DNA of 64,000 nucleotides from an uncultured Solirubrobacterales bacterium (GCA_963783415.1 CAWANN010000015.1:42711-106710); one strand, 5' to 3'; positions 45,260 through 62,237 are shown, counted from the first letter of the stretch. Translations and numbers: made by a program. The notes: a model not told the origin generated them from the sequence alone.

Positions 45260-45273
45260 TGCAATCGTGTGCA
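45260..45273. promoter_or_regulatory. LacI-type operator overlapping the lacI -10 (autoregulation)
   Basis: TGCAATCGTGTGCA; CATAAT at 45272-45277. Confidence 0.65.
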
Positions 45274-45285
45274 TAATGGCTCTGA

Positions 45286-46362
45286 ATGGCGACGAGCAAA
45301 GTGAGCGTCGCGGGGCCGATCACGCTACGGGACGTGGCGCGCGTCGCCGGGGTGCATCCGGGCACCGTCTCGCGCGCGCTCAATCCGGAGACGCGGGGAC
45401 TCGTCAACGAACTGACCGCGGAGCGGGTGCTCGAGGCGGCCAAGGAGCTCGGCTACCGGCCGAACCCGATCGCCCGGGGTCTCCGAACGAACCGGTCCAA
45501 CACGATCGGGGTGCTCGTGCCGGACCTGATGAACCCGCTGTTCGCCGCGGTCGTGCGCGGAATCGAGGACGGGTTGCGCGACGGCGGCTACACGCCGCTG
45601 ATCGCCAACACCGACAACGACTCCGAGCGCGAGCGGGTGGCGTTCGATGCGATGAGCGCACGGCAGGTCGACGGGTTCATCGCAGCCACCGCCCGGCGCG
45701 ACCATTGGCTGCTCGCGGACGAGGTGATCTCGGGCGCGAAGGTCGTGCTCGTCAACCGGCGCGTCGACAGCGATGCGCTTCCAGCCGTCACCGGCGACGA
45801 CCACGAGGGGGTTCGTCTGGCCGTCGGGCACCTGGCCGAGCTCGGGCATGAGCGGATCGCTCACCTCGCCGGCGCGCAGGTCCTGTACACCGGCTGGTCG
45901 CGCAACCAGGGGTTCGTCGACGCGATGCGAGCGCGCGGTTTTGAGCTCGATCCCGGCCTGATCGTGTTCAGCGAGGCGTTCACCGAACGGGAGGGGGCGC
46001 GGTGCTGCGGTGAGCTGCTCGACCGGCGTCGCGACTTCACGGCGATCGTGGCCGGTAACGACCTGCTCGCGCTCGGGTGCTACGACGCGCTCGAACAGCG
46101 CGGCCTTCGCTGCCCGGATGACGTCTCGGTCGTCGGTTACAACGACATGCCGTTCGTCGATCGCTTCCGGCCGCCGCTCACGACCATTCGGGTCCCGCAT
46201 TACGAGCTGGGGTCGACCGCGGCGCACCTGATGCTCGAGCAGCTCCAGGGAATCGACGCGCCGCCGCGCCAGCTGCTGCTCGCACCCGAGCTGGTGATCC
46301 GCGGCTCGACCGCCCCGCCGTCGGCGGACACGACCTTCTCCGGCGGCGGCGGAACAAGCTGA
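45286..46362 (+). CDS. LacI family transcriptional regulator
   Basis: ITLRDVARVAGVHPGTVSRALN, YRPNPIARGL, GNDLLALG, SVVGYND, PPLTTIR. Confidence 0.95.
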   Translation: MATSKVSVAGPITLRDVARVAGVHPGTVSRALNPETRGLVNELTAERVLEAAKELGYRPNPIARGLRTNRSNTIGVLVPDLMNPLFAAVVRGIEDGLRDGGYTPLIANTDNDSERERVAFDAMSARQVDGFIAATARRDHWLLADEVISGAKVVLVNRRVDSDALPAVTGDDHEGVRLAVGHLAELGHERIAHLAGAQVLYTGWSRNQGFVDAMRARGFELDPGLIVFSEAFTEREGARCCGELLDRRRDFTAIVAGNDLLALGCYDALEQRGLRCPDDVSVVGYNDMPFVDRFRPPLTTIRVPHYELGSTAAHLMLEQLQGIDAPPRQLLLAPELVIRGSTAPPSADTTFSGGGGTS

Positions 46363-46408
46363 TTGCAACACGGCTTCCCTTGACACCTCACAGTCACGAC
46401 GATAACGT

Positions 46409-46435
46409 CGCACACGATTGCAGCAAACGTTTGCA
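46409..46435. promoter_or_regulatory. Tandem LacI-type operators upstream of the ABC operon
   Basis: CGCACACGATTGCA (46409-46422) and AGCAAACGTTTGCA (46422-46435). Confidence 0.7.
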
Positions 46436-46537
46436 ATCCGGGATGACTGAACTGCCCGAAGGTGGCTGCAGCCGATCCCGAGTGCGTTCGCTGGTCCGCA
46501 AGTCGACGTATTGAGCGCCTGGGAGGAGAAGGTCCAG

Positions 46538-47830
46538 ATGACACGGTCTAGCCGAAGTGGTTGGATGTTGTCGACCGCGGCCGTGGTCGCGGTCGCCGCA
46601 CTCGTCGCGGGGTGTGGGGGCTCCAGTAGCAGCTCCTCGACCGCGAGCGGCGCGAGCTCGGGCTCGGCGACGAGCTCGACGCAGGCGAGCAAGTCGCCGG
46701 TCACGGTCGGCGCGTCGCTGTCGCTTTCCGGCGACTTCGCCGCCGACGGCCAGGCGTTCCAAAAGGGCTACGAGCTGTGGGCCGCGGATATCAACAAGGC
46801 GGGCGGTCTGCTCGGCCATCCGGTCAAGCTCGACATCGTGTCCGACGCCTCGAGCCCGGCACAGGTCGTGACCAACTATCAGAAGCTGATCTCCTCAGAC
46901 CACGACCAGCTCGTGTTCGGCCCGTTCTCGACGCTGCTCACCGTGCCGTCCTCGAAGGTCGTCAATCGGTACGGGTACGCGTTCGTCGAGGGTGCCGGCG
47001 GCGCGCCGGCGGCATTCGGCAACGGCCTGAAGAACATCTTCGACGTGAGCCTGCCGGTGATCGACAACCTCATCCCGTTCGCGCACTGGCTCGCGACGCT
47101 GCCCGCGTCGCAGCGGCCCAAGACCGCCGCGGTCGCCACCAGCGACGACCCGTTCACGCAGCCGCAGTTCCCGGCGGCGGTCAAGATCCTCCAGAACGCC
47201 GGGATCAAGATCGTCTACAACAAGGTGTTCCCGGCCGAGGTCACGGACTATGCGCCGATCGCGACGAGTGTCGCGAGCACGAAGGCCGACGCATTTCTGC
47301 TGGGCTCGGTCGACGTACCGACGGTGTCGGCGTTCATCCACACGTTCATCCAGCAGCATTACAACCCCAAGGCGTTCATCGCCACCGCCGGTCCGGATCA
47401 AGGCGCCGCGTTCCTGAAGGCGATCGGCGGCGCGTCGAACGCGGAGGGCGTGATGGTTCCGAACGGCTGGTATCCGGGGTACGTCAACGCCGCCAGCCAG
47501 AAGATGGTCCAGGAGTACGTCGCCAAGTACGGCGGCAGCCCCTCCGACGTGAACGCGGACGTCGCCGAGGCCTACTCGGTGGGTCAGATCGTCGCCCAGG
47601 CTGCCGCCGCGACGCACAGCCTCGACAACTCGAAGATCATCGCTTACCTGCACAGCCCCGTCACATTCAACAGCGTCCAGGGGCCGGTCAAGTTCAATTC
47701 GCTTGGTGAGAACGGCGCCGCCGCGGCGTTCGCGTTCCAGTGGCAGAAGGGTAATCTCGTGCAGGTGTTGCCGGTCGGGGCGACAAGCTCCAAGCCGGTC
47801 GTATACCCGAAGCCAAACTGGGGATCGTGA
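46538..47830 (+). CDS. Branched-chain amino acid-type ABC substrate-binding lipoprotein (LivK-like)
   Basis: GGAGGAG RBS, lipobox LVAG-C, SLSLSGDFA, INKAGGLLG, LVFGPFS. Confidence 0.9.
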   Translation: MTRSSRSGWMLSTAAVVAVAALVAGCGGSSSSSSTASGASSGSATSSTQASKSPVTVGASLSLSGDFAADGQAFQKGYELWAADINKAGGLLGHPVKLDIVSDASSPAQVVTNYQKLISSDHDQLVFGPFSTLLTVPSSKVVNRYGYAFVEGAGGAPAAFGNGLKNIFDVSLPVIDNLIPFAHWLATLPASQRPKTAAVATSDDPFTQPQFPAAVKILQNAGIKIVYNKVFPAEVTDYAPIATSVASTKADAFLLGSVDVPTVSAFIHTFIQQHYNPKAFIATAGPDQGAAFLKAIGGASNAEGVMVPNGWYPGYVNAASQKMVQEYVAKYGGSPSDVNADVAEAYSVGQIVAQAAAATHSLDNSKIIAYLHSPVTFNSVQGPVKFNSLGENGAAAAFAFQWQKGNLVQVLPVGATSSKPVVYPKPNWGS

Positions 47831-48711
47831 GCGCTTCCTCAATTGCCAAGGCGGTCGTCGACGGGATCCTGACGGGGGGCGTATACGCCCTGATGGCGGC
47901 GGGGCTCACGCTCATCTTCGGGGTGATGGACATCATCAACATCGCCCAGGGCGCCCTGATCGTGCTCGGCGCCTACATGAGCTACGTTCTGTCGGTCCAC
48001 CTCGGAATCGATCTGTTCGTCGGCTTGATCATCACGATCCCGGCGTTCTTCGTGCTCGGCGTGTTCATCGAGTGGGCGTTCATGCGCCGCCTGCGCGAAC
48101 AGGAGCGGACCGCGATGTCAATTCTCGTGACCTACGCGGTGGCGATCATCATCGAGGGCATTCTGAGTGTCATCTTCGGGGTCGATTACCTCCAGCTCCA
48201 AGCCTCGTATGTGAACAGCTCGTTCCACATACTCGGTTTCTATCTGCCCTACATCTACGTGTTCGGATTTGTGCTCGCGCTCGCGCTGATGGGTGTCCTG
48301 TACTGGATCCTGTACCGCACTCATTTCGGCCGCGGGGTGAGAGGGTCACTGCAGAACCGTTCGGCGGCGGAGTTGATCGGGGTGAACGTGAACCGGGTAC
48401 GCGCGCTGTCGGTCGGGATCGGTGTGTCGGTCACCGCGGCCGGCGGGATGGTGTTCGGTGCGACGAACTCGTTCAATCCAAGCAGCGGGTACGACCTGAT
48501 ATCGCGCCTGCTGTCGATCGTGATCCTGGCCGGGCTGGGCAGCATCGGCGGTGCGCTGATCGCGGCGATATTCATGGTCACGCTGGAGGACGTGGTCGCG
48601 GTCGTGTGGTCGCCGGTGTGGGCGACGCTCGTGTATTACGCGTCGCTGATCGTCGTGCTGTCGTTCATGCCGAACGGCCTGTTCGGCAAGGCGGCAGTCC
48701 GGGCGCAATGA
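47827..48711 (+). CDS. ABC permease (LivH-like)
   Basis: GGVYALMAAGLTLIFGVMDIINIAQG, IGVNV, VILAGLGSIGGA. Confidence 0.92.
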   Translation: MSASSIAKAVVDGILTGGVYALMAAGLTLIFGVMDIINIAQGALIVLGAYMSYVLSVHLGIDLFVGLIITIPAFFVLGVFIEWAFMRRLREQERTAMSILVTYAVAIIIEGILSVIFGVDYLQLQASYVNSSFHILGFYLPYIYVFGFVLALALMGVLYWILYRTHFGRGVRGSLQNRSAAELIGVNVNRVRALSVGIGVSVTAAGGMVFGATNSFNPSSGYDLISRLLSIVILAGLGSIGGALIAAIFMVTLEDVVAVVWSPVWATLVYYASLIVVLSFMPNGLFGKAAVRAQ

Positions 48712-48730
48712 CGCCGCGGGACTGCGTCGC

Positions 48731-49768
48731 GTGACCACGCGCCGATTGATACGGGTGGTGAAGATCGCGATCGCGATCGCGATCCTGGCCCTGTTTCCAC
48801 AGGTGTTCAGCAACCCGGCCACGACCTCGATCGCGGTGTTCACGCTGATCTTCATGGTCGCGGCGTCCTCCTGGAACATATTCTCCGGTTACTCCGGCTA
48901 CATCGCGCTTGGCCACGCGGTCTACTTCGGAGTCGGCGCCTATGCCCTGACGCTGCTTGCCAACCATCTGGGTTTCGCCGCGGGGTGGGGGATATTCGCG
49001 TTGGTGCCGGTCGCCGGGATCATCGCCGGCCTGGTGGCCGTCCCCACGGGGTTGATCGCGCTCCGCGCCCGCCGCCACACGTTCGTGGTGATCACGATCG
49101 CGTTCATGTTCGTCTTCCAGCTCGCGGCGAGCAACTTCGCCTTCACCGGAGGGACCTCGGGCCTCCAGCCGCCGACGCCGCTGTGGTCGGCCGCCTCCTA
49201 CAACGACCACTTCTATTACGTGACCGCGATCGTCCTGGTCGCGACGGTCGCGCTGTCGTGGCTGGTTCGCCGATCGCGCTTCGGCCTCCAGCTGTTCGCG
49301 ATCCGCGATGACGAGGAGCGGGCCCGCGGCCTCGGGGTTCGCGTGGCGCGGGTCAAGCTGACCGCATTCGTCACCTCGGCAATCCCCGTCGGGATGGTCG
49401 GCGGGATCTACGCGTACTTCCTCGGCCAGATATTCCCGCAGTTCGCGTTCGACCCGCTGTTCGACCTCTCGATTGCGTTGATGGCGTTCATCGGCGGTCT
49501 GGGGACGGTGTGGGGACCACTGCTGGGAGCGTTCGTGCTGGAATCGCTCCAGCAGTACTTCACCGAGCAATCGGGCGCGAGCCAGGTGTACCTGATCATC
49601 TACGGCGGGCTCTTCCTCGCGGTCATCCTGCTGCTCCCGCGGGGCATCATTCCGAGCATTCAGGAGCTGCTCGAGCGATGGCGCACGCGGGGCGCGGAGC
49701 AGGACCGGGCCCTGGAGGAGGACGCCGGCCGCGCGGGCGACGTCGTCAAGGCGGCGGGGGCGCGATGA
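48731..49768 (+). CDS. ABC permease (LivM-like)
   Basis: WNIFSGYSGYIALGHAVYFGVGAY, AIRDDEERARGLGV, FIGGLGTVWGPLLGA. Confidence 0.92.
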   Translation: MTTRRLIRVVKIAIAIAILALFPQVFSNPATTSIAVFTLIFMVAASSWNIFSGYSGYIALGHAVYFGVGAYALTLLANHLGFAAGWGIFALVPVAGIIAGLVAVPTGLIALRARRHTFVVITIAFMFVFQLAASNFAFTGGTSGLQPPTPLWSAASYNDHFYYVTAIVLVATVALSWLVRRSRFGLQLFAIRDDEERARGLGVRVARVKLTAFVTSAIPVGMVGGIYAYFLGQIFPQFAFDPLFDLSIALMAFIGGLGTVWGPLLGAFVLESLQQYFTEQSGASQVYLIIYGGLFLAVILLLPRGIIPSIQELLERWRTRGAEQDRALEEDAGRAGDVVKAAGAR

Positions 49769-50562
49769 GCGCGTTCATCGGGAATTTGTCGGCGGCGCCT
49801 GGCGGCGGCGCCTTACTCGAGGCCGAGGGCGTGTGCAAGGCGTTCGGCGGTCTCCAGGCACTCTCGGACTGCTCGCTGTCGGTCCCCAAAGGGTCGATCG
49901 CCGGCCTGATCGGACCCAACGGGTCGGGCAAGACGACGCTGTTCAACGTGATGACGGGCTACGAGCGGTGCAATGCCGGCGAGATCCGGTTCGCCGGCGA
50001 GTCGATCACCGGCGCCACGCCCGAGCGCGTGTTCGGACTCGGGGTCGGGCGGACGTTCCAGATCACCAGGCTCTTCTTCCGGCTGAGCGTGCTCGAGAAC
50101 ATCCTCGTGGCCACGCAACGGCACGAGGGATGGATGCGCAGCGTGGCCCGCCGGGCGGGCTCGGCGGCAGAGCGCCGGCGGGCGCTGGAGATGCTCGAGT
50201 TCGTGGGGCTCGAGCGGTTGGCGAACGGCCCCGCCGGCAATCTGTCGTACGGGCAGCGCAAGCTGCTGGAACTGGCGTCGCTGCTGGTCGCCGACCCCGC
50301 CGTGCTGCTCCTCGACGAGCCGACCGCGGGCGTCAACCCGGTCCTGATCGAGCAGCTGTCCGAGCGCATTCGCGAGCTCAATCGCGCCGGCAAGACATTC
50401 CTGGTCGTCGAGCACAACATGGAGTTCGTGATGGGGCTGTGTCACGAGGTGACGGTGCTGCACCAGGGGCGGACGCTCGTCAACGGGACGCCCGAGCAAG
50501 TCCGCGCGAACCCGGCGGTGCTCGACGCGTACCTGGGCGGAGGCGACGACGATGACTTCTAG
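49765..50562 (+). CDS. ABC ATP-binding protein (LivG-like)
   Basis: GPNGSGKTT, LSYGQRKLLE, LLDEP, VEHNM. Confidence 0.93.
   Translation: MSAFIGNLSAAPGGGALLEAEGVCKAFGGLQALSDCSLSVPKGSIAGLIGPNGSGKTTLFNVMTGYERCNAGEIRFAGESITGATPERVFGLGVGRTFQITRLFFRLSVLENILVATQRHEGWMRSVARRAGSAAERRRALEMLEFVGLERLANGPAGNLSYGQRKLLELASLLVADPAVLLLDEPTAGVNPVLIEQLSERIRELNRAGKTFLVVEHNMEFVMGLCHEVTVLHQGRTLVNGTPEQVRANPAVLDAYLGGGDDDDF
49788..49814 (+). repeat. In-frame copy of the 27-bp REP-like element
   Basis: GTCGGCGGCGCCTGGCGGCGGCGCCTT, identical to 27851-27877. Confidence 0.8.
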
Positions 50563-51325
50563 CGGGCCGAACGGCTCAGGTCCGGGAGGCAACGCACTTC
50601 TCGCCCTCGACGGAGTGACCGCCGGCTACGGCGGCGGCGACATCCTCAAGGGCGTCTCGTTCACGGTCGCCGAACGCGAGATCATGTGCATCGTCGGCCC
50701 CAACGGCGCCGGAAAGTCCACGCTGCTGGCCACGATCAGCGGCGTCCTCCGTCCCCGCCGCGGGGCGATTGCGTTCAGGGGCGAGTCGCTGCTCGGCCTC
50801 GCGCCGCGCCAGGTGCTGGCCAAGGGGGTGGTCATGGTTCCGCAGGCCCACAGCCTGTTCGGAGAGATGACCGTTCGCGAGAACGTCGAGATGGGCGCGT
50901 ACACGGTCCGCGACGCCGGACTGGTCCGGCGCCGACTCGGCAAGGTCGAGGAGCTGTTCCCGCTCGTGCGCGAGCGGGCGCACGACAAGGCCGGGGGCCT
51001 GTCCGGCGGTCAGCAGCGCCTGGTCGAGCTCGCGCGCAGCCTGATGCTGGATCCGGCGCTGATCGTCCTCGACGAGCCGTCGATCGGGCTCGATCCGCCC
51101 ACGCGCAAGATCGTCTTTCAGATGATCCGGCTGCTGAACCAGCAGGGTCGAACGATCTTGCTCGTCGAGCAGAACGCGCGCGCGGGTCTGAGGCTCTCAA
51201 CGCGCGGCCTCGTACTGGAGAACGGGCGCGTGCGGCTCACCGGGACCGGACGCGAGATCCTCGAGCACCCCGAGATCGGGGCGCTGTACCTCGGTGGCGC
51301 GGTGTCGAGCACGTCCGCGAGCTGA
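50552..51325 (+). CDS. ABC ATP-binding protein (LivF-like)
   Basis: GPNGAGKST, LSGGQQR, LDEPSIGL, LVEQNA. Confidence 0.93.
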   Translation: MTSSGPNGSGPGGNALLALDGVTAGYGGGDILKGVSFTVAEREIMCIVGPNGAGKSTLLATISGVLRPRRGAIAFRGESLLGLAPRQVLAKGVVMVPQAHSLFGEMTVRENVEMGAYTVRDAGLVRRRLGKVEELFPLVRERAHDKAGGLSGGQQRLVELARSLMLDPALIVLDEPSIGLDPPTRKIVFQMIRLLNQQGRTILLVEQNARAGLRLSTRGLVLENGRVRLTGTGREILEHPEIGALYLGGAVSSTSAS

Positions 51326-55106: not shown

Positions 55107-55129
55107 GTTATCCCTTTAGGGTTGAGAGC

Positions 55130-55185
55130 TTACCTACTGGAAGGTAGGTTATCGGACGTCGGGACCTCTACCTACTAGTAGGTAG
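55130..55185. promoter_or_regulatory. Two TetR operators
   Basis: Perfect palindrome CTACCTACTAGTAGGTAG (55168-55185) and variant TTACCTACTGGAAGGTAG (55130-55147). Confidence 0.75.
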
Positions 55186-55213
55186 GTAAACACCAAACAA
55201 AGAGGAGGGGGCC

Positions 55214-55575
55214 ATGGGCACCGTCACCACCTTCGACTCGACCGCTTCACCCGGGCGGCCGAGGAGCGCGACGCCGCGACGCAGGTGTCGATGTACGGGC
55301 CGGATGCGGTCGTGACGATCACCAACAAGATCTCCCAGCCGGGTGCGCCGCGGGTGCTGCGCAAGCGGGAGGAGATCAAGGGTTGGCTCGAGGACACGTA
55401 CAGCCGCGAGATGACCCACAAGGTCAGGCACCGCGTCCTCGACGACACCGGCGCGGCCTACACCCAGGCATGCCGGTACCCCGACGGCACCAACGTGTTG
55501 TGCTCGACCGTGATCGAGCTCGACGGCGGAGTGATCTCGGCGCAGAGCGTGCTCGAGGTCTGGGACGAGGCATGA
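55214..55575 (+). pseudogene. SnoaL/NTF2-like protein with a 1-nt frameshift near 55238
   Basis: GAGGAGG RBS and MGTVTTFD in one frame, DRFTRAAEERDAATQVSMYGPDA... in the next. Confidence 0.65.
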
Positions 55576-55578
55576 GCC

Positions 55579-56652
55579 ATGTCGACCACGATCCAGCCTG
55601 TCGATCAGGCAAAGCTCGATGAGTTCATGGGCCGGTTCGTGGGTGATCTGGGCGCCGCGCTAAGCGCGGCGCTCGTGGTCATCGGCGATCGGTTGGGCCT
55701 CTACCGGGCGATGGCCGACGGTGAGCCGGTCGGGCCCGATGAGCTGGCGGAGCGGACGGGCACCGATGCACGCTATGTGCGCGAGTGGCTGTCCAACCAG
55801 GCCGCGAGCGGCTACGTCAACTACGACTCCGGCCAGGGAACCTTCTCGCTATCGCCCGAGCAGGCCTTCACGCTTGCCCAGGAGGACAGTCCGGCGTTCG
55901 TGCCGGGCGCGTTTCAGGTGGCGACGGCGGCGATCAAGGATGAGGAGAAGATCGAGCGTGCGTTCGTCGGCGGGCACGGAGTCGGCTGGCACGAGCATCA
56001 CGACGATCTGTTCAGCGGCACCGAGCGGTTCTTCCGGCCAGGGTACGCGGCCAATCTCGTGTCGTCGTGGATTCCGGCGCTCGACGGGGTCGAGGGCAGG
56101 TTGCAAACCGGGGCGCGCGTGGCCGACGTCGGCTGCGGCCACGGCGCGTCGACGCTCCTGATGGCGCAGGCGTTCCAGCGCTCGGAGTTCGTCGGGTTCG
56201 ACTACCACGCACCGTCGATCGAGCACGCTCGCGCGGCGGCGGCGAAGGCCGGCCTGGGCGACCGGGCGCGTTTCGAGGTCGCGTCCGCCAAGGACTATCC
56301 CGGAGACGCGTACGACCTCATGTGCATGTTCGACTGCCTGCACGACATGGGCGACCCGGTCGGCGCCGCCGCCCACGTGCTGCGGAGCCTCGCGCCGGAC
56401 GGGACCTGGCTGATCGTCGAGCCCTACGCCGGCGACCGGCTCGAGGACAACCTCAACCCGGTCGGCCGCGTGTACTACGGCGCATCGACGCTCGTGTGCA
56501 CGCCGGCATCGCGGGCTCAGGAGGTCGGCCTGGCGCTAGGCGCCCAGGCCGGCGAGGCTCGGCTCCGCGAGGTGGTCACCGCCGGCGGCTTCACGCGCTT
56601 TCGCCGCGCGACCGAGACGCCGTTCAACCTGGTTCTGGAGGCGCGCCCGTAG
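55579..56652 (+). CDS. Class I SAM-dependent methyltransferase with N-terminal wHTH (Rv2258c-like)
   Basis: IGDRLGLY, RYVREWL, VADVGCGHG, FDCLHDMGDP, TPFNLVLEARP. Confidence 0.9.
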   Translation: MSTTIQPVDQAKLDEFMGRFVGDLGAALSAALVVIGDRLGLYRAMADGEPVGPDELAERTGTDARYVREWLSNQAASGYVNYDSGQGTFSLSPEQAFTLAQEDSPAFVPGAFQVATAAIKDEEKIERAFVGGHGVGWHEHHDDLFSGTERFFRPGYAANLVSSWIPALDGVEGRLQTGARVADVGCGHGASTLLMAQAFQRSEFVGFDYHAPSIEHARAAAAKAGLGDRARFEVASAKDYPGDAYDLMCMFDCLHDMGDPVGAAAHVLRSLAPDGTWLIVEPYAGDRLEDNLNPVGRVYYGASTLVCTPASRAQEVGLALGAQAGEARLREVVTAGGFTRFRRATETPFNLVLEARP

Positions 56653-56655: not shown

Positions 56656-58014
56656 TTATCCGAGCGCTAGCGATGCCCCGGGGTCGCCCGCGGGCATCGC
56701 CTCCTGCGTCTCGTGGTTCAGGACCGTGTTGCGCTCCGAGGTGACCTCGCGCTCGAGCGGCAGCGACCCGCCGACCGTCTGGTACCGCCTGCCGGCGATC
56801 ACGAGATCCTCGGCGGGGAAGCGGGTGATCACCTCGCAGCCGTCCGCGGTAACGACCAGCTGCTCCTCGATCCGCGCCGCCGACCAGCCGTCGCTGGCCG
56901 GCCAGAACGTCTCGAGCGCGAACACCATGCCCTCCCGGATCTCCTCGGGATGGTCGAGCGAGACGAGCCGGCTGAAGATCGGCTTCTCCCAGATCGACAG
57001 ACCGACACCGTGTCCAAACTGGAGCGCGAACGCCGCCTCCTCGTCGGAGAACCCGAACTCCTGCGCCCGCGGCCAAACGCCGGCCACCTCGCCGGTGGTG
57101 GCGCCGGGACGGATCAGTTCGATCGCCGCGTCGAGGTAGTAGCGGCACCGCCTGTAGGCGTCGACCAGCGCTCGCGAGGCACTCGCCACCGCGAACGTGC
57201 GGTAGTAGCACGTGCGGTAGCCCATGAAGCTGTGGAGGATGTCGAAGTACGCGGGGTCGCCGGGCCGGAGCGCACGATCGGTGTACACGTGCGGGTGGGG
57301 GTTGCAGCGCTCGCCCGAGATCGCGTTGACCCCCTCCACGAACTCCGACCCCATGTCGTAGAGCACCTTGTTGACCAGGCCGACGCACTCGTTCTCGCGC
57401 ATCCCTGGCTTCATCGCGCGGTACAGCTCCTCGTAGGCGGCGTCGACCATCGCGCACGCGTGGTTGAGCAGCGTGATCTCGTCCTGGGTCTTGATCACGC
57501 GGGCCTGCTGCATCAACTGCTGGCCGTCGACGACCTGGATTCCCCGGGCCTGCAGCGCGAACAGCACGGGTGGCTCGACGGCGTCGACGCCGACCGGCTC
57601 ACCGAGGAGGCCGCGCTGCTCAAGCTCGACCGCGATCTTGTCCGCGACGTCCTCGGCCCGGCCGGACTCGGGGGCCATCGCGCCGCGCAGGGTTGAGATG
57701 CCGGCGCGAGAGCGACCCTGCGCCAGCCATGGGTTGTACAGCTGATGGTGGCGCGCGGCCGACCCGAAATCCCACATGATCGGCTCGTCGTGCTGGGGGA
57801 GCAGGCAGAAGCGGTTCAGCTTGTCCTGCGCCCAGGTGCCGATGTGGGTCGCCGTGATGTAGCGGATGTTCGTCATGTCGAAGCACAGCAGTGCTCCGAG
57901 CGAGGACTCCGCCAGCAGGCCGGCGATCCGCGCGAGCCGCTCCGTGCGCAGGCGATCGAAGCGGACGCGCTCCTCCCAGTCGACGGCCATCGTCCCGTAG
58001 GTGCGGAGTCCCAC
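56656..58014 (-). CDS. M24 (Xaa-Pro peptidase/creatinase/DddP-like) family protein
   Basis: LLCFDMTNIRY, IKTQDEI, FDILH, FGHGVG, ALETF, RIEEQL; GTG 6 nt after TAAGCT. Confidence 0.88.
   Translation of the reverse strand: MGLRTYGTMAVDWEERVRFDRLRTERLARIAGLLAESSLGALLCFDMTNIRYITATHIGTWAQDKLNRFCLLPQHDEPIMWDFGSAARHHQLYNPWLAQGRSRAGISTLRGAMAPESGRAEDVADKIAVELEQRGLLGEPVGVDAVEPPVLFALQARGIQVVDGQQLMQQARVIKTQDEITLLNHACAMVDAAYEELYRAMKPGMRENECVGLVNKVLYDMGSEFVEGVNAISGERCNPHPHVYTDRALRPGDPAYFDILHSFMGYRTCYYRTFAVASASRALVDAYRRCRYYLDAAIELIRPGATTGEVAGVWPRAQEFGFSDEEAAFALQFGHGVGLSIWEKPIFSRLVSLDHPEEIREGMVFALETFWPASDGWSAARIEEQLVVTADGCEVITRFPAEDLVIAGRRYQTVGGSLPLEREVTSERNTVLNHETQEAMPAGDPGASLALG
56670..56700. terminator. 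Hairpin at the convergent junction
   Basis: GCGATGCCC...GGGCATCGC 9-bp stem. Confidence 0.35.
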
Positions 58015-58024: not shown

Positions 58025-58038
58025 TACAATCGTTTGCA
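58025..58038. promoter_or_regulatory. LacI-type operator overlapping the M24 -10
   Basis: TACAATCGTTTGCA (reverse complement TGCAAACGATTGTA). Confidence 0.65.
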
Positions 58039-58137
58039 CCCGGCGCGAGACGCGTGCGACTGAGTTTTTCGCTGGATATCAGCGAAAAACACAGTCGCGT
58101 CGGCGGGTTGACGCAACAAGCGACAGTCCGGTACGCT

Positions 58138-58151
58138 TGCAAACGATTGCA
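58138..58151. promoter_or_regulatory. LacI-type operator upstream of the dehydrogenase operon
   Basis: TGCAAACGATTGCA. Confidence 0.7.
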
Positions 58152-58185: not shown

Positions 58186-59136
58186 ATGCAGGATCGAAAC
58201 CTGAACGAGAAGCGCCTCGGCTGGGTGGGTGCGGGCCGCATGGGTCTGGCGCTCGCGACCCGTCTGCTCGACGCCGGGTGCGACGTCGCGGTCTACAACC
58301 GCACGCGGTCGAAGGCCGAGCCGCTGGCCGCGCTCGGCGCGACGATCGTCGATGCGCCGGCGGACCTCGGTGACCGTGACATCGTGTTCACGATCGTCGC
58401 GGGGCCGGCCGACTTCCAGCAGGTGGTCACCGGACCCGAAGGGGTGTTGTCGGGGTCGGGACAGGCGCCGGCGGTCATCGTCGATTCCACGACCGTGTCG
58501 GCGGAGGCGTCCGCCGTCGTGAGGGCCGAGGCCGAGAGGCGCGGGACCGCGCTGCTGGCCGCGCCCGTCAGCGGGAACCCGAAGGTGGTCAAGGCCGGCC
58601 GGCTGACGATGGTCACCTCAGGACCCGAGGAGGCGCATCGCGCGGCGCTGCCCTACCTCGAGATCATGGCCGCGGGCGGCGTGACGTATTGCGGCGACGG
58701 AGACGGCGCCCGGCTGGTCAAGGTGTGCCACAACCTGATGCTCGGGATCGTCGCGCAGACGCTGGCGGAGATCCTCGTGCTCGCCGAGAAGGGCGGCGTG
58801 TCGCGGGCGGACCTGATGGAGTTCCTGAACAACAGCGTGATGGGCTCGACCTTCACCCGCTACAAGACGCCGGCCTACGTCAACCTGGATTTCACGCCGA
58901 CGTTCACCCCCGAGCTCCTGCTCAAGGACTTCGATCTTGGACACCAGGCGGCGCGCGAGCTCGGCGTGCCGATGCCGGTGGCCTCGGCCGCGCAACAGGT
59001 CGTCCAGGCTTTGATCGGCAACGGCTACACCGACGTCGACTTCGCCGCGCTGATCGAGCTCCAGGCCAAGGCGTCGTCGCTCGAGCTCGAGTCCGAGGCC
59101 GCGCCCGTGTCCGATGGGCTGGAGCGCGCCGCGTGA
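58186..59136 (+). CDS. NAD(P)-dependent beta-hydroxyacid dehydrogenase (HIBADH/6PGD-like)
   Basis: GWVGAGRMG, VYNRTRSK, AAPVSG, KVCHN, KDFDL; AGGAG RBS. Confidence 0.9.
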   Translation: MQDRNLNEKRLGWVGAGRMGLALATRLLDAGCDVAVYNRTRSKAEPLAALGATIVDAPADLGDRDIVFTIVAGPADFQQVVTGPEGVLSGSGQAPAVIVDSTTVSAEASAVVRAEAERRGTALLAAPVSGNPKVVKAGRLTMVTSGPEEAHRAALPYLEIMAAGGVTYCGDGDGARLVKVCHNLMLGIVAQTLAEILVLAEKGGVSRADLMEFLNNSVMGSTFTRYKTPAYVNLDFTPTFTPELLLKDFDLGHQAARELGVPMPVASAAQQVVQALIGNGYTDVDFAALIELQAKASSLELESEAAPVSDGLERAA

Positions 59137-60107
59137 CGGTCGACGCCGCGGTCGGCACCGAGGCGCCCGCGGCGTACCTCGAGCGCTACGGGCGGATGCT
59201 CCTGATTCGCCTGTTCGAGACCGAGATGCAGCGGCTGTTCCTGAAGGGCGAGGTCCACGGCACCACCCACCTGTGCGCGGGCCAGGAGGCCGTGCCGGTG
59301 GGGGTCTGCTCGGCGCTCGAGCCCGACGACTACCTCGCCGGGACCTACCGCGGCCACGGCCACGCGCTCGCCAAGGGCACCGACCCCGGCGCGCTGATCG
59401 CGGAGATGCTCGGCCGCGCCACCGGCGTCTGCGCCGGGCGGGCCGGATCGATGAACGTGATCGACATCGAACACGGGTTGGTCGGCTGCTTCGGGATCGT
59501 CGGCGGCAGCATCGCCGCCGCCACCGGCGCCGCGCTCGCCGCCAAGCGCCAGGGCCGCGTCGCGGTCGCGATGTTCGGCGACGGCGCGACTAACCAGGGG
59601 TACTTCCACGAATGCCTGAACTTCGCCAAGGTGTTCTCCCTGCCCGCCGTGTTCGTGTGTGAGAACAACTTCTACGGAGAGTTCACGCCGATGACGGCGG
59701 TGACCGCCGGCCACGACATCGCGGCGCGCGCCGGCGCGTACGGGATCCCCGGCGATGTCGTCGACGGCAACGATGTGTGGGCGGTGCGTGAGGCCGCCGT
59801 CGAGGCCGTCGCACGCGCTCGAAGCGGCTCTGGGCCGACGCTGCTCGAGTGCCAGACATATCGCCATCACGGCCACTCGAAGGCGGACCCGGCGCGCTAC
59901 CGCCCTCCGGAGGAGGTCGAGCGGTGGCTGGCGCGCGACCCGCTCGGGATCGCGCGGGCGCGTCTGGTCGAGCTCGGGGTCGCCGAGTCGGAGATCGACG
60001 AGGTCGAGGAGGCGACCCGCGCCCGGATGGATCGGGCGGTGGAGGCGGCGCTCGCCGCGCCGTACCCCGACCCGCAGGCCGAGCACGCGACGGAGTTCGC
60101 CCCATGA
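59133..60107 (+). CDS. TPP-dependent 2-oxoacid/acetoin dehydrogenase E1 alpha
   Basis: HLCAGQEA, TYRGHGH, FGDGATNQG...ENN, TYRHHGHS. Confidence 0.93.
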   Translation: MTVDAAVGTEAPAAYLERYGRMLLIRLFETEMQRLFLKGEVHGTTHLCAGQEAVPVGVCSALEPDDYLAGTYRGHGHALAKGTDPGALIAEMLGRATGVCAGRAGSMNVIDIEHGLVGCFGIVGGSIAAATGAALAAKRQGRVAVAMFGDGATNQGYFHECLNFAKVFSLPAVFVCENNFYGEFTPMTAVTAGHDIAARAGAYGIPGDVVDGNDVWAVREAAVEAVARARSGSGPTLLECQTYRHHGHSKADPARYRPPEEVERWLARDPLGIARARLVELGVAESEIDEVEEATRARMDRAVEAALAAPYPDPQAEHATEFAP

Positions 60108-61090
60108 CCCTCGAGTTCCGCGCCGCGATCCGCGAGGCGATCATCGAGGAGATGGAGCGCGACCAGTCGGTCGTGTTCTTCGGCGAGGACGTCGCCGCCG
60201 AACAGGGCGGCGTGTTCGCGGTCACGCCCGGCATCCAGGAACGATTCGGATCCGAGCGGGTGTTCGACACGCCGATCTCCGAGCTCGCGCTGGCGGGCGC
60301 GGCGTTCGGCGCCGCCGTCGCCGGCCTGCGCCCGATCATCGAGATCATGTTCGGCGACTTCATGGGGCTGGCGATGGACTCGCTCGTCAACCAATCCGCC
60401 AAGTACTGGTACCTGTCAGCAGAGCAGCGCAGCGTGCCGCTCGTCGTCCGCTCGGCCGTCGGCGGCGGTGGCCGGTTCGGCGCGATCCACTCCCAGACGC
60501 ACGCGACCTGGTTCCAGGGGATCCCCGGGCTGAAGATCGCGTTCCCGTCCTCGCCGGCGGAGGCGAAGGGGCTTCTCAAGGGCGCGATCCGCGACGATAA
60601 CCCGGTGATCTTCCTCGAGCACAAGCGCCTCTACTCGGTCAAGGGTCCAGCTCCCGCGGTCGCCGACGAGGTCATCCCGCTGGGCCGCGCGCGCGTGGCG
60701 CGCTCCGGCAGCGACGTGACGATCGTCTCCGCCGGCAAGGGCGTGCCCGACGCGCTCGAAGCCGCCGAGCAGCTTGCCCGCGGCGGCGTCGAGGCCGAGG
60801 TCATCGACGTGCGCACACTCCGGCCGCTCGATCTCGACACCGTGCTCGAGTCGGTGGCTCGGACCAACCGCCTGCTGGCCGTCGAGGAGGGGCCTCGCAC
60901 CGGGGGCTGGGGATCGGGTTTGCTCGGCCGGGTCGCCGAGCACGGGCTCCACGATCTCGACGACGCCTGGCTGCTCGCCACCGACGAGCTTCCGATCCCC
61001 TACAGCCCGACGCTCGAGGACGCGTTCATCCCAGGCGCCGCCGCGATCGCGGCCGCGGTAGCGGAGCGCGCGGGCATCGCGGTGAGCTGA
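60104..61090 (+). CDS. TPP-dependent dehydrogenase E1 beta
   Basis: FGEDV, DTPISE, EIMFGDF, HSQ, FLEHKRLY, DVRTLRPLD. Confidence 0.93.
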   Translation: MTLEFRAAIREAIIEEMERDQSVVFFGEDVAAEQGGVFAVTPGIQERFGSERVFDTPISELALAGAAFGAAVAGLRPIIEIMFGDFMGLAMDSLVNQSAKYWYLSAEQRSVPLVVRSAVGGGGRFGAIHSQTHATWFQGIPGLKIAFPSSPAEAKGLLKGAIRDDNPVIFLEHKRLYSVKGPAPAVADEVIPLGRARVARSGSDVTIVSAGKGVPDALEAAEQLARGGVEAEVIDVRTLRPLDLDTVLESVARTNRLLAVEEGPRTGGWGSGLLGRVAEHGLHDLDDAWLLATDELPIPYSPTLEDAFIPGAAAIAAAVAERAGIAVS

Positions 61091-61091
61091 C

Positions 61092-62237
61092 ATGCCCGAG
61101 ATCGTGATGCCGCGGTTGTCGGACTCGATGGAGGAGGGCACGATCGTCCGCTGGCTGAAGCAGGACGGCGATGAGGTGTCGAAGGGTGAGCCGCTCGCCG
61201 AGGTCGAGACCGACAAGGCGACCGTCATGTTCGATGCGGACGCCGACGGGACGCTGCGGATCCTCGCCGGCGAGGGCGAGACCGTGGCGATCGGCGGCGT
61301 GATCGGGAGCATCGGCGACGCGCTGCCCCGATCTCCGGCGCCCGCCCAGCCCGGCCCCGCCGCGCCGGCCCCCGCCGCCGCGGGCAAATCATCCGATGCC
61401 GGCAACGGGTCCGACCGCGTCAAGGCATCACCGCTCGCCCGGCGGATCGCGCGCGAATCGGAGGTCGACCTACGCGGGCTGAGCGGCTCCGGTCCCGGCG
61501 GGCGAATCGTCAAGGCTGACGTGCCCAAGCGCGGCGCCAAGGGCGTCGTCACGACCGAGCAGCCCTCCCGCATCCAGGTCCAGATCGCCCAGCGGATGGC
61601 GGAATCCAAGGCGACGATCCCGGACTTCACGCTGCATGCGGAGGTCGCCATGGAGCAGGCGGTCGAGCTTCGCTCGCAGCTGCGCAAGGCGGCGCCTGAC
61701 GGCGGCGCCTTGGCGGTGCCGTCCTACAACGACATGGTGGTCAAGGCGTGCGGGCTCGCGCTGCGCGAGCATCCGCGCGCGAACGCCGCCTACCGCGACG
61801 GCGCGTTCGAGCTGTACGAGCGCGTCAACGTCGGGATCGCGGTCGCGGCGCACGACAGCCTCATCGTCCCGACCGTATTCGACGCCGACCGCAAGTCGTT
61901 GCTCGAGATCGCGCGGGAGACGCGGACGCTCGTCGAGCGCGTCCGGTCACACCAGATCACGCCCGCCGAGCTGTCGGGAGGCACGTTCACGGTGTCCAAC
62001 CTGGGGATGTACGGCGTGGCCGGCTTCGAGGCGATCATCAATCCGCCGCAGGCTGCGATTCTGGCGGTCGGGGAGCTGCAAGAGGTCCCGGTCGTCCGCG
62101 AGCGGCAGGTGGTTCCCGGCTCGCGGATGAGCATCGCGCTCACGTGCGACCACCGGATTCTGTATGGCGCCCCGGCCGCGGAGTTCCTCGCGCGCGTCCG
62201 GCAACTGCTCGAGCAGCCGCTCTACTTGCTCGTCTGA
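61092..62237 (+). CDS. Dihydrolipoamide acyltransferase E2
   Basis: Lipoyl motif EVETDKA, KASPLARR binding domain, TVSNLG, catalytic DHRILYG. Confidence 0.94.
   Translation: MPEIVMPRLSDSMEEGTIVRWLKQDGDEVSKGEPLAEVETDKATVMFDADADGTLRILAGEGETVAIGGVIGSIGDALPRSPAPAQPGPAAPAPAAAGKSSDAGNGSDRVKASPLARRIARESEVDLRGLSGSGPGGRIVKADVPKRGAKGVVTTEQPSRIQVQIAQRMAESKATIPDFTLHAEVAMEQAVELRSQLRKAAPDGGALAVPSYNDMVVKACGLALREHPRANAAYRDGAFELYERVNVGIAVAAHDSLIVPTVFDADRKSLLEIARETRTLVERVRSHQITPAELSGGTFTVSNLGMYGVAGFEAIINPPQAAILAVGELQEVPVVRERQVVPGSRMSIALTCDHRILYGAPAAEFLARVRQLLEQPLYLLV
61688..61711 (+). repeat. In-frame 24-bp core of the REP-like element
   Basis: GGCGGCGCCTGACGGCGGCGCCTT, encoding AAPDGGAL. Confidence 0.75.

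What the first reader, a model, noticed from the sequence alone, without database searches (positions are those of the whole stretch)
45260..62237. LacI-controlled catabolic cluster for an unknown (possibly N-heteroaromatic) substrate
Seen: five related operators (45260, 46409, 46422, 58025, 58138; consensus TGCAAACGATTGCA) link lacI, the ABC-hydrolase-Mo subunit operon, the M24 gene and the dehydrogenase-E1/E2 operon across 17 kb. Established: LacI operators have a central CG palindrome; the DHPON hydrolase of Paenarthrobacter nicotinovorans is an alpha/beta-fold C-C hydrolase acting beside molybdo-hydroxylases. Inference: uptake, Mo-dependent hydroxylation, hydrolytic C-C cleavage, amide hydrolysis or lyase step, then oxidation and oxidative decarboxylation to an acyl-CoA. 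A LacI regulator paired with a Liv-type transporter and this enzyme set matches no pathway I know.
Basis: partly seen in the sequence, partly recalled or inferred. Interest (0 to 1): 0.68.

Follow-up and report, generated by a model that had tools for sequence, protein, structure and literature searches.

The report
LacI-controlled catabolic cluster, substrate unknown
This is a real, repressor-controlled set of about 13 genes that lets a soil actinobacterium import and break down a still unidentified small organic compound; its core enzymes recur in many soil phyla, and I found no description of the pathway.

Summary
All five 14-bp palindromes are present, and all lie in the three promoter regions. 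Four of the six best sites in the 5.6-Mb genome fall here. The same sites sit at the same promoters in 14 of 16 related genomes and in a second actinobacterial class.

The gene calls are also right: LacI, a Liv-type ABC importer, a DHPON-hydrolase-like alpha/beta hydrolase, a CoxL-type molybdenum large subunit, an M24 protein, a HIBADH-type dehydrogenase, and E1alpha/E1beta/E2.

The interpretation needs revision. The conserved core is the importer, the hydrolase, and a cross-phylum module: an M24 protein with an invariant Cys at a metal-ligand position, a dehydrogenase and thiamine E1alpha/beta (often E2). The molybdenum subunit is a lineage-specific accessory. Here it lacks its FAD and Fe-S partners. 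Sister genomes put an NAD aldehyde dehydrogenase in its place or have nothing there. It therefore looks more like an aldehyde oxidiser than the key ring hydroxylase.

The M24 protein is not a DMSP lyase. A 2.1-kb decaying TetR/SnoaL/methyltransferase insert interrupts the cluster. No curated family model or paper I could search assigns the pathway. The substrate remains unknown, and an N-heteroaromatic one is possible but not favoured.

The parts
45260..45273 (.). Operator O1 (TGCAATCGTGTGCA), directly upstream of lacI and overlapping a -10-like CATAAT; probable autoregulation.
   Evidence: The same position is occupied in L013, L015, L016 and L019.
45286..46362 (+). LacI/GalR-family repressor, 358 aa.
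   Evidence: Pfam LacI HTH plus Peripla_BP_1/3. No NCBIfam equivalog is reached; the best is RbsR at 227 bits against a cut-off of 382. Orthologues are 52-95% identical in relatives.
46409..46435 (.). Tandem operators O2a (46409-46422) and O2b (46422-46435), which share one base. They lie just after TTGACA-17-TAACGT of the ABC operon promoter.
   Evidence: The tandem pair is conserved in L015 and L016, and a single site in L013 and L014.
46538..47830 (+). Substrate-binding lipoprotein of a HAAT (Liv-type) ABC importer; signal peptide ending LVAGC.
   Evidence: Pfam Peripla_BP_6, E 1.5e-45. The best solved relatives are only E 1e-14. N-terminus read.
47827..51325 (+). LivH-like permease (47827-48711), LivM-like permease (48731-49768), LivG-like ATPase (49765-50562) and LivF-like ATPase (50552-51325); mostly linked by short overlaps (19-nt gap between the two permease genes).
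   Evidence: ORFs, junction sequences, synteny.
51325..52389 (+). Alpha/beta hydrolase of the DHPON-hydrolase / AntI / Ayg1 / FrsA clade. Ser-Asp-His triad retained (GVSLGG, GGLD, GTHV).
   Evidence: PDB 2jbw at E 6e-47. The triad columns align. Identity to bona fide DHPON hydrolases is 33%.
52386..54554 (+). Molybdopterin-binding large subunit of CoxL/Kdh/Qor type. It has a YRGAGR loop (not the CO-dehydrogenase form-I loop) and GIGEGG. No medium or small subunit gene follows it.
   Evidence: Pfam and NCBIfam and PDB neighbours. Relatives have L-M-S order. There are no orthologous M/S genes in the genome. dN/dS is 0.17-0.23.
54591..56652 (.). Insert that is not part of the regulon: an N-terminally truncated TetR gene (54591-55115, minus strand), AT-rich palindromes (55131-55184), a SnoaL-like gene with a 1-nt frameshift (ATG at 55214, continuing in another frame to 55575), and a SAM methyltransferase (55579-56652, plus strand).
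   Evidence: It is absent from the closest relative L013, where Mo and M24 are 56 bp apart, and partly present in L015 and L016.
56656..58014 (-). M24 'pita-bread' protein of a distinct family, here called M24(Cys). Ligand set is D258 / C269 / H335 / E368 / E383, with C269 invariant. It is the most conserved gene of the cluster.
   Evidence: Identity to proteins in other phyla is 64-88%.
58025..58038 (.). Operator O3 (TACAATCGTTTGCA), 11 nt upstream of the M24 start codon.
   Evidence: Conserved in every relative that has the M24/DH divergent region.
58138..58151 (.). Operator O4 (perfect TGCAAACGATTGCA), abutting the -10 (TACGCT) of the dehydrogenase-E1-E2 promoter.
   Evidence: The TTGAC(G/C)-17/18-TAnnnT-operator architecture is conserved in ten relatives.
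58186..59136 (+). Beta-hydroxyacid (HIBADH-type) NAD(P) dehydrogenase.
   Evidence: Pfam NAD_binding_2 plus NAD_binding_11. No equivalog is reached. PDB neighbours are generic.
59133..61090 (+). Thiamine-diphosphate E1 alpha (59133-60107) and E1 beta (60104-61090), PDH/acetoin-like.
   Evidence: E1 alpha scores 331 bits against the PDH cut-off of 394; the best solved relative is human PDH E1 alpha.
61092..62237 (+). E2 acyltransferase with lipoyl, E3-binding and catalytic domains. The catalytic motif reads DHRILYG instead of DHRxxDG. No E3 gene is in the cluster.

Best explanation
What it is. This is a LacI-repressed catabolic regulon for one unidentified small organic nutrient. It is assembled from a conserved core plus lineage-specific accessories.

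Shown:
- The repressor gene and three promoter regions carry the same 14-bp palindrome, placed over or just after the -10 elements. Binding there would block transcription of lacI, of the importer-hydrolase-Mo operon, of the M24 gene and of the dehydrogenase-E1-E2 operon.
- The core is a Liv-type ABC importer, a DHPON-type Ser-Asp-His hydrolase, an M24 protein with an invariant Cys at a metal-ligand position, a HIBADH-type dehydrogenase, and E1alpha/beta with E2.
- This core travels together across phyla under different regulators (LacI, GntR or XRE-cupin).

Inferred sequence of steps:
1. The compound is imported.
2. The hydrolase cuts a C-C (retro-Claisen) or ester bond of a beta-dicarbonyl-type substrate.
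3. The M24(Cys) enzyme performs a metal-dependent hydrolysis or elimination on a carboxylate-bearing fragment.
4. The dehydrogenase oxidises the resulting hydroxy compound.
5. The thiamine/lipoyl E1-E2 system, using an E3 encoded elsewhere, cleaves the product oxidatively to an acyl-CoA. This may be an acetoin-type cleavage that also releases an aldehyde.
6. The aldehyde is oxidised by the Mo large subunit here, which must borrow Fe-S and FAD subunits from a paralogous set. In sister genomes an NAD aldehyde dehydrogenase does this.

The inducer is presumably the substrate or an early intermediate.
For: Regulon:
- The window has 5 sites against 2.4 expected. Four of the 6 best sites in the genome are here.
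- Sites are conserved at orthologous promoters in 14 of 16 relatives and in Streptosporangiaceae-type loci that carry a LacI orthologue.

Core:
- Full synteny holds across the genus and in a second family.
- Among 80 loci from about 10 phyla chosen by M24 similarity, the neighbours are E1beta in 64, E1alpha in 61, the dehydrogenase in 52, Liv ATPases in 36, E2 in 34, the binding protein in 29 and the hydrolase in 22.
- 17-18 of 20 genomes with the hydrolase also have M24(Cys), against 43-46 of 301 overall (Fisher p about 1e-13).

Accessory status of Mo:
- Relatives have L-M-S order, and the genome has no orthologous M/S genes.
- An aldehyde dehydrogenase occupies the same position downstream of the hydrolase in L023 and L025.
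- An ALDH-superfamily gene lies in 16 of the 80 loci, and one sits between the lipoyl and E2 genes on Phaeobacter plasmids.
- The best NCBIfam match is glyceraldehyde dehydrogenase alpha.
- The gene is still under purifying selection, with dN/dS 0.17-0.23.

Other support:
- The hydrolase triad is retained, and its nearest solved relatives are all retro-Claisen C-C hydrolases.
- Junctions within the operons are short overlaps or gaps of at most 19 nt, consistent with co-transcription.
Against: - No substrate, inducer or enzyme activity has been tested, so every chemical step is inferred from family membership and gene context.
- The M24/E1 module occurs without the hydrolase in about 60% of the genomes that have it. 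It could therefore process a common downstream intermediate and not belong to one fixed pathway.
- The aldehyde dehydrogenases found in different loci are only about 35-40% identical to each other and may not be equivalent.
- An orphan Mo large subunit with no cognate electron-transfer subunits may be inactive or may do something else.
- E1/E2 could simply be a 2-oxoacid dehydrogenase that releases CO2 and not an aldehyde.
- The 80 loci were chosen as the best M24 hits, and genomes are phylogenetically non-independent, so counts and p-values overstate independence.
Confidence: 0.55

Rival explanations
1. The substrate is an acyl-substituted N-heteroaromatic, such as a pyridine-type alkaloid or vitamin derivative. 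The Mo enzyme hydroxylates the ring next to the acyl group. The DHPON-type hydrolase then removes the side chain, as KdhLMS and DHPON hydrolase do for nicotine. M24, the dehydrogenase and E1/E2 dispose of the side chain.
For: - The closest characterised relative of the hydrolase is DHPON hydrolase (2jbw, E 6e-47).
- On the nicotine plasmid pCZY that hydrolase gene lies next to the large Kdh subunit, whose two partner genes are 4 kb away. This parallels the hydrolase-Mo adjacency here.
- KdhL is among the near-equal best solved matches of the Mo subunit (7dqx, E 1e-107).
- Relatives add an ACMSD-family decarboxylase, which acts on (hetero)aromatic or vinylogous acids, and full L-M-S subunits.
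- Some distant M24 contexts hold an amidohydrolase, amidase, RidA and cupins.
Against: - Mo orthologues are restricted to Thermoleophilia and are absent from most loci that have the hydrolase plus importer plus M24 module.
- The Mo gene is replaced by an NAD aldehyde dehydrogenase or by nothing in sister genomes.
- M and S subunits are absent here.
- Identity to DHPON hydrolase is only 33%.
- No ring-hydroxylating or ring-cleaving oxygenase lies in the regulon.
- The flavoprotein in relatives is CrtI-like, not 6-hydroxynicotine-oxidase-like.
- The Mo subunit scores as well against CO dehydrogenase and glyceraldehyde oxidoreductase as against Kdh.
Confidence: 0.2
2. The cluster is two independent pathways under one repressor. 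The importer-hydrolase-Mo unit serves one substrate. The M24-dehydrogenase-E1/E2 unit is a general-purpose module for a common metabolite. They are co-regulated but not consecutive.
For: The M24/E1 module occurs with sugar-type ABC transporters, with amidohydrolase/bicupin sets, or alone. It is present without the hydrolase in 26-28 of the 43-46 genomes that have it.
Against: - The hydrolase almost never occurs without M24(Cys) in the same genome, and the two are usually within 5 kb.
- The same 12-gene arrangement, DH-E1a-E1b-M24-E2-SBP-LivHMGF-hydrolase, recurs in Chloroflexota and Alicyclobacillus under a GntR regulator.
- One operator type controls all units in two classes.
Confidence: 0.15
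3. A DMSP or acrylate-type route. The M24 protein is a DddP-like lyase that releases acrylate, which is hydrated, oxidised by the HIBADH enzyme to malonate semialdehyde, and converted to acetyl-CoA.
For: DddP is the nearest solved structure and the best NCBIfam family. HIBADH-type enzymes include 3-hydroxypropionate dehydrogenases (my own knowledge).
Against: - The NCBIfam DddP score is 116 bits against a cut-off of 600.
- Two of DddP's six invariant metal ligands are lost: D297 aligns to a gap and D307 to Cys.
- Both proposed catalytic residues, Y366 and D377, are absent (residue roles from PMC4108388).
- The organism is a soil bacterium.
Confidence: 0.03
4. The E1/E2 operon is simply the housekeeping pyruvate or branched-chain dehydrogenase, and the palindromes near it are incidental.
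For: E1 alpha is most similar to PDH E1 alpha.
Against: - The scores fall below the PDH equivalog cut-offs.
- The genome has four other E1 alpha/beta sets, only 41-47% identical to this one.
- The operator at this promoter is conserved in every relative examined.
- M24 is embedded between E1 beta and E2 in many phyla.
Confidence: 0.04

Closest known systems
6-hydroxypseudooxynicotine dehydrogenase (KdhLMS) plus 2,6-dihydroxypseudooxynicotine hydrolase of the Paenarthrobacter nicotine plasmids (pAO1, pCZY)
   Same: An alpha/beta C-C hydrolase of the same clade, with the Ser-Asp-His triad, is encoded next to a CoxL-type Mo large subunit. That subunit's partner genes are not adjacent.
   Different: - Identity to the hydrolase is only 33%.
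- The Mo subunit is no closer to KdhL than to CO dehydrogenase or glyceraldehyde oxidoreductase.
- There is no 6-hydroxynicotine oxidase, no 2,6-dihydroxypyridine hydroxylase and no Ndh.
- Regulator, importer and downstream module are different.
- The Mo gene is dispensable in sister clusters.
DMSP lyase DddP (M24 'pita-bread' lyase; PDB 4b28, 4rzy)
   Same: It has the same two-domain fold (TM 0.72-0.75). It is the best sequence match among solved structures. Four of its six metal ligands are retained (D295, H371, E406, E421 equivalents).
   Different: D307 is replaced by an invariant Cys. D297, Y366 and D377 are missing. Identity is 21-23%. The protein is always paired with thiamine E1 subunits and not with DMSP genes.
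Acetoin dehydrogenase (AcoABC, with acetaldehyde dehydrogenase AcoD) and pyruvate dehydrogenase complexes
   Same: There is a heterotetramer-type E1 alpha/beta plus a lipoyl E2, and E3 is supplied from elsewhere. An aldehyde-oxidising enzyme is frequently co-encoded, as in acetoin catabolism (the AcoD comparison is from my own knowledge).
   Different: - Scores are below the PDH equivalog cut-offs.
- An M24 gene is embedded in or adjacent to the operon.
- The partner dehydrogenase is HIBADH-type and not a butanediol dehydrogenase.
- The E2 of this order carries DHRxxYG.
- The substrate is untested.
LacI/GalR repressors with cre/PurR-type operators (core AANCGNTT)
   Same: It has an HTH plus a periplasmic-binding-protein fold, and a 14-bp palindrome with central CG placed over the promoters, including its own.
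   Different: It is paired with an amino-acid-type (HAAT) importer instead of a sugar importer, and the effector is unknown. In other phyla the same enzyme set is run by GntR or XRE-cupin regulators.

Membership tests
LacI/GalR transcriptional repressor | N-terminal LacI-type HTH plus a periplasmic-binding-protein-like effector domain | tested here: met
   PF00356 at E 2.6e-13, PF13377 at E 1e-37 and PF00532 at E 7e-33.
LacI/GalR transcriptional repressor | Palindromic operators with a central CG at the regulated promoters, conserved with the regulator | tested here: met
LacI/GalR transcriptional repressor | Known effector, or membership of a named equivalog | tested here: not met
   The best NCBIfam equivalog is RbsR at 227 bits against a cut-off of 382. 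Effector binding is not testable here.
2,6-dihydroxypseudooxynicotine hydrolase (EC 3.7.1.19) | FrsA/DHPON-type alpha/beta fold with a Ser-Asp-His triad | tested here: met
   The match to 2jbw covers residues 8-350. S218, D301 and H329 align with the triad residues of 2jbw. Which residues form the triad is from my own memory of the 2jbw paper.
2,6-dihydroxypseudooxynicotine hydrolase (EC 3.7.1.19) | Orthology and nicotine-pathway gene context | tested here: not met
   Identity to annotated DHPON hydrolases is 33%. None of the kdhA/B, dhpH or 6-hydroxynicotine oxidase genes seen on pCZY is present here.
DMSP lyase DddP | Six invariant metal ligands (D295, D297, D307, H371, E406, E421) and invariant Y366 and D377 | tested here: not met
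   D297 aligns to a gap, D307 to Cys269, Y366 to Ala, and D377 to a gap. Residue roles are from PMC4108388. The NCBIfam score is 116 bits against 600.
M24 (creatinase/prolidase) fold | Pita-bread catalytic domain with a creatinase-like N-domain | tested here: met
   PF00557 at E 3.7e-34. The AlphaFold model (pLDDT 69) matches DddP, prolidases, creatinase and DoeA with TM 0.6-0.75.
Molybdenum hydroxylase (xanthine oxidase / CoxL family) holoenzyme | Large subunit with the hammerhead domain and two MoCo-binding domains | tested here: met
   PF01315, PF02738 and PF20256.
Molybdenum hydroxylase (xanthine oxidase / CoxL family) holoenzyme | Co-encoded FAD (medium) and 2Fe-2S (small) subunits | tested here: not met
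   Neither is in the cluster. The best genomic CoxM and CoxS matches are 45% and 53% identical and belong to other complete sets. Relatives L018, L019, L024, L026 and L027 do have them.
Aerobic CO dehydrogenase form I | Cys-containing active-site loop (VAYRCSFR) | tested here: not met
   The loop reads YRGAGR. The NCBIfam CODH scores of 447-489 bits fall below the cut-offs of 950-991. The loop criterion is from my own knowledge.
2-oxoacid / acetoin dehydrogenase complex | E1 alpha (TPP), E1 beta, and an E2 with lipoyl, E3-binding and catalytic domains | tested here: met
2-oxoacid / acetoin dehydrogenase complex | Equivalog-level assignment to PDH, BCKDH, OGDH or acetoin DH; canonical DHRxxDG in E2; E3 in the cluster | tested here: not met
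   E1 alpha scores 331 bits against 394. E2 scores 334 bits against 445. The E2 motif is DHRILYG. No E3 gene is in the cluster.
2-oxoacid / acetoin dehydrogenase complex | Substrate class: 2-oxoacid or alpha-hydroxyketone | not testable with these tools
   The only evidence is contextual: aldehyde-oxidising genes are co-encoded, and a split transketolase is found in L019 and L026.
HAAT-family (Liv-type) ABC importer | Cluster-B binding protein, two permeases and two ATPases | tested here: met
   PF13458, gene order and lipoprotein signal.

The most novel reading that the evidence does not exclude
The invariant-Cys M24 protein and the thiamine E1 alpha/beta pair that almost always accompanies it form a previously undescribed two-enzyme unit, in which a metal-dependent ring-opening or elimination feeds an unstable product directly into a thiamine-dependent C-C cleavage. 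The 12-13-gene cluster built around this unit would be the route for an abundant but unrecognised soil compound used by Actinomycetota, Chloroflexota, Acidobacteriota, Dormibacterota and others.
Probability: 0.3. Interest if true: 0.8.

Novelty: new variant of a known kind. Interest (0 to 1): 0.6.

Why it matters
- **Distribution.** About one in seven sampled Actinomycetota genomes carries the M24(Cys) gene. The same module appears in at least ten phyla, mostly from soil and groundwater.
- **Annotation.** These genes are currently labelled 'Xaa-Pro peptidase', 'pyruvate dehydrogenase' or 'DHPON hydrolase'. The labels hide a coherent, unassigned pathway.
- **Conservation.** The M24 protein is far more conserved than the genes it is co-transcribed with: median 71% identity against 48% for E1 and 38% for E2, on a set chosen by M24 similarity. 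This points to an unusually constrained catalyst.
- **What identification would give.** Finding the substrate would add a carbon or nitrogen flux to soil models and a new reaction to the M24 and thiamine enzyme families. It would also correct thousands of annotations.
- **Experimental entry point.** The well-defined LacI and operator pair, together with the binding protein, give direct handles for ligand screening.

Tried and rejected
1. **DddP identity.** Rejected on residues and score.
2. **CO dehydrogenase.** Rejected on the active-site loop and score.
3. **Orthology to the nicotine Kdh/DHPONH pair.** The resemblance in layout is real, but the identities and the context do not support membership.
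4. **Amine-oxidase step in relatives.** I asked whether the flavoprotein in relatives could be a 6-hydroxynicotine-oxidase analogue. It is CrtI-like.
5. **Phloroglucinol route.** The ring-opening enzyme there belongs to the 'cyclase' family and not to M24.
6. **Sulfonamide degradation.** M24/E1 loci occur on Paenarthrobacter plasmids, but the sad genes of strain SD-1 lie on another plasmid and the paper does not mention these genes.
7. **Fusion proteins as functional links.** The long 'fusions' among metagenome proteins carry partial domains and look like frameshifted gene calls.
8. **Extra operator-like sites.** The two sites elsewhere in the genome, on C16 and C23, flank unrelated genes.
9. 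**Sigma-70 and terminator scan.** Uninformative in this 69% G+C genome. Promoters were read by eye and by conservation.
10. **Literature.** Nine searches that ran found no paper describing this gene set. The library lacks most subscription journals, so this is absence in the library and not proof of absence.
11. **Recent horizontal transfer as the cause of M24 conservation.** The M24 tree largely follows taxonomy, with 13 label changes against a minimum of 9 and a shuffled mean of 29.5.

Full report
**Organism and layout.** The window is contig C15:42711-106710 of a 5.6-Mb, 69% G+C assembly. The nearest database proteins come from Solirubrobacteraceae and Solirubrobacterales metagenome bins. 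Between 45.2 and 62.3 kb I read the following genes:
- lacI (45286-46362)
- a binding lipoprotein (46538-47830)
- two permeases and two ATPases (47827-51325)
- an alpha/beta hydrolase (51325-52389)
- a Mo-binding large subunit (52386-54554)
- an insert (54591-56652)
- an M24 gene on the minus strand (56656-58014)
- a dehydrogenase, E1 alpha, E1 beta and E2 (58186-62237)

Junctions within the two operons are ATGA/GTGA-type overlaps or gaps of 1-19 nt. GH65 upstream and zwf downstream carry no operator.

**Observation.** That is 9 strand matches against 2.41 expected, with no shuffle reaching 9. Genome-wide, 4 of the 6 sites with at most 1 mismatch to TGCAAWCGWTTGCA are in this cluster. The other two flank unrelated genes. 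Each site sits on a promoter:
- O1 overlaps CATAAT just before a probably leaderless lacI.
- O2a and O2b follow TTGACA-17-TAACGT.
- O4 abuts TTGACG-18-TACGCT.
- O3 lies 11 nt before the M24 start.

**Conservation of the regulon.**
- I fetched 20-kb neighbourhoods of the hydrolase from 16 related genomes. Fifteen of the 16 keep at least part of the set, and four (L013-L016) keep every gene in the same order.
- Sites with at most 2 mismatches occur only in intergenic promoter regions. There are always two between M24 and the dehydrogenase gene. Others lie before lacI, before the binding-protein gene, before E1a/E2 where E2 is inverted, and before the hydrolase or its upstream gene.
- The -35/-10/operator architecture of the dehydrogenase promoter is alignable across ten genomes.
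- The same motif accompanies LacI orthologues (54-56% identical) in Streptosporangiaceae-type loci of another class. It is absent where the regulator is GntR or XRE-cupin.

**The M24 protein.**
- It is the most conserved gene: 84-95% identical within the order, where the neighbours drop to about 60%.
- A pattern-plus-tblastn scan of one genome per species returned 599 relatives. The best 80 are 64-88% identical and come from Actinomycetota, Chloroflexota, Acidobacteriota, Dormibacterota, Rokubacteria, Deinococcota, Myxococcota, Bacillota and Pseudomonadota.
- Outside its own order the median identity is 71% for M24, against 48% for E1 alpha and beta and 38% for E2. The set was chosen by M24 similarity, so this comparison is biased upward.
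- The M24 tree largely follows taxonomy and has short branches. Slow evolution, more than recent transfer, explains the conservation.
- Alignment to DddP shows that D295, H371, E406 and E421 equivalents are kept. D307 is an invariant Cys (C269, in GYRTCYYRT). D297, Y366 and D377 are missing (residue roles from PMC4108388).
- Sequence search of the PDB and Foldseek on a moderate-quality AlphaFold model both rank DddP first, with prolidases, creatinase and ectoine hydrolase behind.
- The protein is thus a separate M24 family of unknown reaction.
- Earlier notes of this scan had flagged the same Asp-to-Cys change and the same M24/E1/HIBADH association in over a dozen other genomes. I treated these as leads and re-derived both points here.

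**Core and accessory genes.** Around the 80 M24 loci, de novo clustering of ORFs gives these counts:

| Neighbour | Loci out of 80 |
|---|---|
| E1 beta | 64 |
| E1 alpha | 61 |
| HIBADH-type dehydrogenase | 52 |
| Liv ATPases | 36 |
| E2 | 34 |
| binding protein | 29 |
| hydrolase | 22 |
| aldehyde dehydrogenase | 16 |
| CrtI-like flavoprotein | 13 |
| ACMSD-like amidohydrolase-2 | 12 |
| LacI | 9 |
| Mo large subunit | 8 |

- The canonical arrangement outside Actinomycetota is GntR | DH-E1a-E1b-M24-E2 | SBP-LivHMGF-(ACMSD-like)-(ALDH)-hydrolase. One example is Alicyclobacillus sp. ALC3.
- In an even sample of 301 Actinomycetota genomes, 17-18 of the 20 with the hydrolase also have M24(Cys), against 43-46 of 301 overall.
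- The hydrolase therefore depends on the M24/E1 module, but the module does not depend on the hydrolase.

**The hydrolase.** Its best solved relative is DHPON hydrolase, followed by AntI, Ayg1/Yg1, FrsA and AbyA5. The Ser-Asp-His columns are conserved. Identity to true DHPON hydrolases is 33%. The family resemblance supports a retro-Claisen or ester hydrolysis and does not identify a substrate.

**The Mo subunit.**
- It matches M. smegmatis CoxL, Sulfolobus glyceraldehyde oxidoreductase, KdhL and Qor almost equally. Its best NCBIfam match is glyceraldehyde dehydrogenase alpha, below the cut-off.
- In L018, L019, L024, L026 and L027 it is followed by FAD and 2Fe-2S subunit genes.
- In this genome and its four closest relatives those genes are gone. 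The genome holds no orthologous copies, only five or six paralogous sets.
- The gene is nevertheless under purifying selection like its neighbours.
- In L023 and L025 an NAD aldehyde dehydrogenase occupies the slot after the hydrolase, and in L021 nothing does.
- On Phaeobacter plasmids an aldehyde dehydrogenase sits between the lipoyl and catalytic E2 genes of an SDR-M24-E1a-E1b-...-LpdA operon.
- These substitutions suggest that the step is aldehyde oxidation. They fit an acetoin-type E1/E2 cleavage that yields an acyl-CoA plus an aldehyde, but this is inference.
- The layout does echo the nicotine plasmid, where the hydrolase gene lies beside the large Kdh subunit gene. For that reason I keep the heteroaromatic reading as the main rival at 0.2.

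**The insert.**
- Between the Mo and M24 genes lie a TetR gene lacking its N-terminus, two AT-rich palindromes, a SnoaL-like gene with a 1-nt frameshift, and an intact methyltransferase.
- The closest relative has only 56 bp at this point, while L015 and L016 have parts of the insert.
- The insert replaces the position where other relatives keep CoxM and CoxS, and it is not under the LacI operator.

**Known pathways.** None of the ten proteins reaches an NCBIfam equivalog cut-off, and public annotations are generic. Literature searches found no description. The library is incomplete, so a characterisation in a subscription journal cannot be excluded.

**Verdict.** The regulon is real and conserved, and it belongs to a widespread gene set whose function I could not find described. 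The Mo-centred, N-heteroaromatic chemistry is not the best-supported reading. The substrate remains unknown.

Noticed in passing
window 54591-56652: A decaying insert sits between the Mo and M24 genes. It holds a TetR gene that has lost its N-terminal helix (stop codons upstream of RDNISRGF), a SnoaL-like gene with a 1-nt deletion after codon 8, and an intact Rv2258c-like methyltransferase. It occupies the place where relatives have CoxM and CoxS.
   Followed up: partly
window 55131-55184: Two AT-rich inverted repeats (TACCTAC-N7-GTAGGT and the perfect TACCTACTAGTAGGTA) lie in the TetR/SnoaL intergenic region. They are probably the TetR operator. The segment is strikingly low in G+C for this genome.
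   Followed up: no
window 62148-62168 (E2 residues 353-359): The E2 catalytic motif reads DHRILYG instead of the canonical DHRxxDG. The Asp-to-Tyr change (Asn in one case) is shared by the cluster E2 of the Thermoleophilia loci where E2 was found (L013-L016, L019-L020, L022-L025, L027-L028, L033). E2 genes of the same module in other phyla keep Asp.
   Followed up: partly
window 58069-58093: A perfect 10-bp stem with a 5-nt loop (TTTTTCGCTG-GATAT-CAGCGAAAAA) lies between the two operators of the divergent M24/DH region. It is recognisable only in the closest relative L013 and not in more distant ones.
   Followed up: partly
window 56656-58014 (M24 residues 233-242): Besides C269, the orthologues that are at least 64% identical share an invariant SGERCxPHPH loop (C237, H240, H242). 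It is lost in more distant family members and poorly modelled by AlphaFold. It may be a second metal or substrate site.
   Followed up: no
L019:2169-6203 and L026:14258-19347: Two relatives carry a second, paralogous LacI (52% identical) with similar operators. It controls a split transketolase (N- and C-terminal halves), a crotonase-family protein and a second HIBADH-type dehydrogenase. No E1/E2 was found within the 20 kb fetched for L026.
   Followed up: partly
L018:4340-6486, L031:12264-13496, and Haloarcula plasmid L030: A second, different M24 protein with creatinase-like altered ligands recurs with a Zn-dependent alcohol dehydrogenase, an EamA/DMT transporter, an amidohydrolase-2 and the DHPON-type hydrolase. 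This holds from Thermoleophilia to a haloarchaeal plasmid.
   Followed up: no
genome contig C20:595466-608478 (outside the window): A paralogous E1alpha/E1beta/E2 set lies about 8 kb from another CoxL-like gene, which tblastn returns as two adjacent pieces and which may be frameshifted.
   Followed up: no
window 62222-62237: The E2 gene and the convergent glucose-6-phosphate dehydrogenase gene overlap tail to tail by 16 bp. This adjacency is kept only in the four closest relatives.
   Followed up: no
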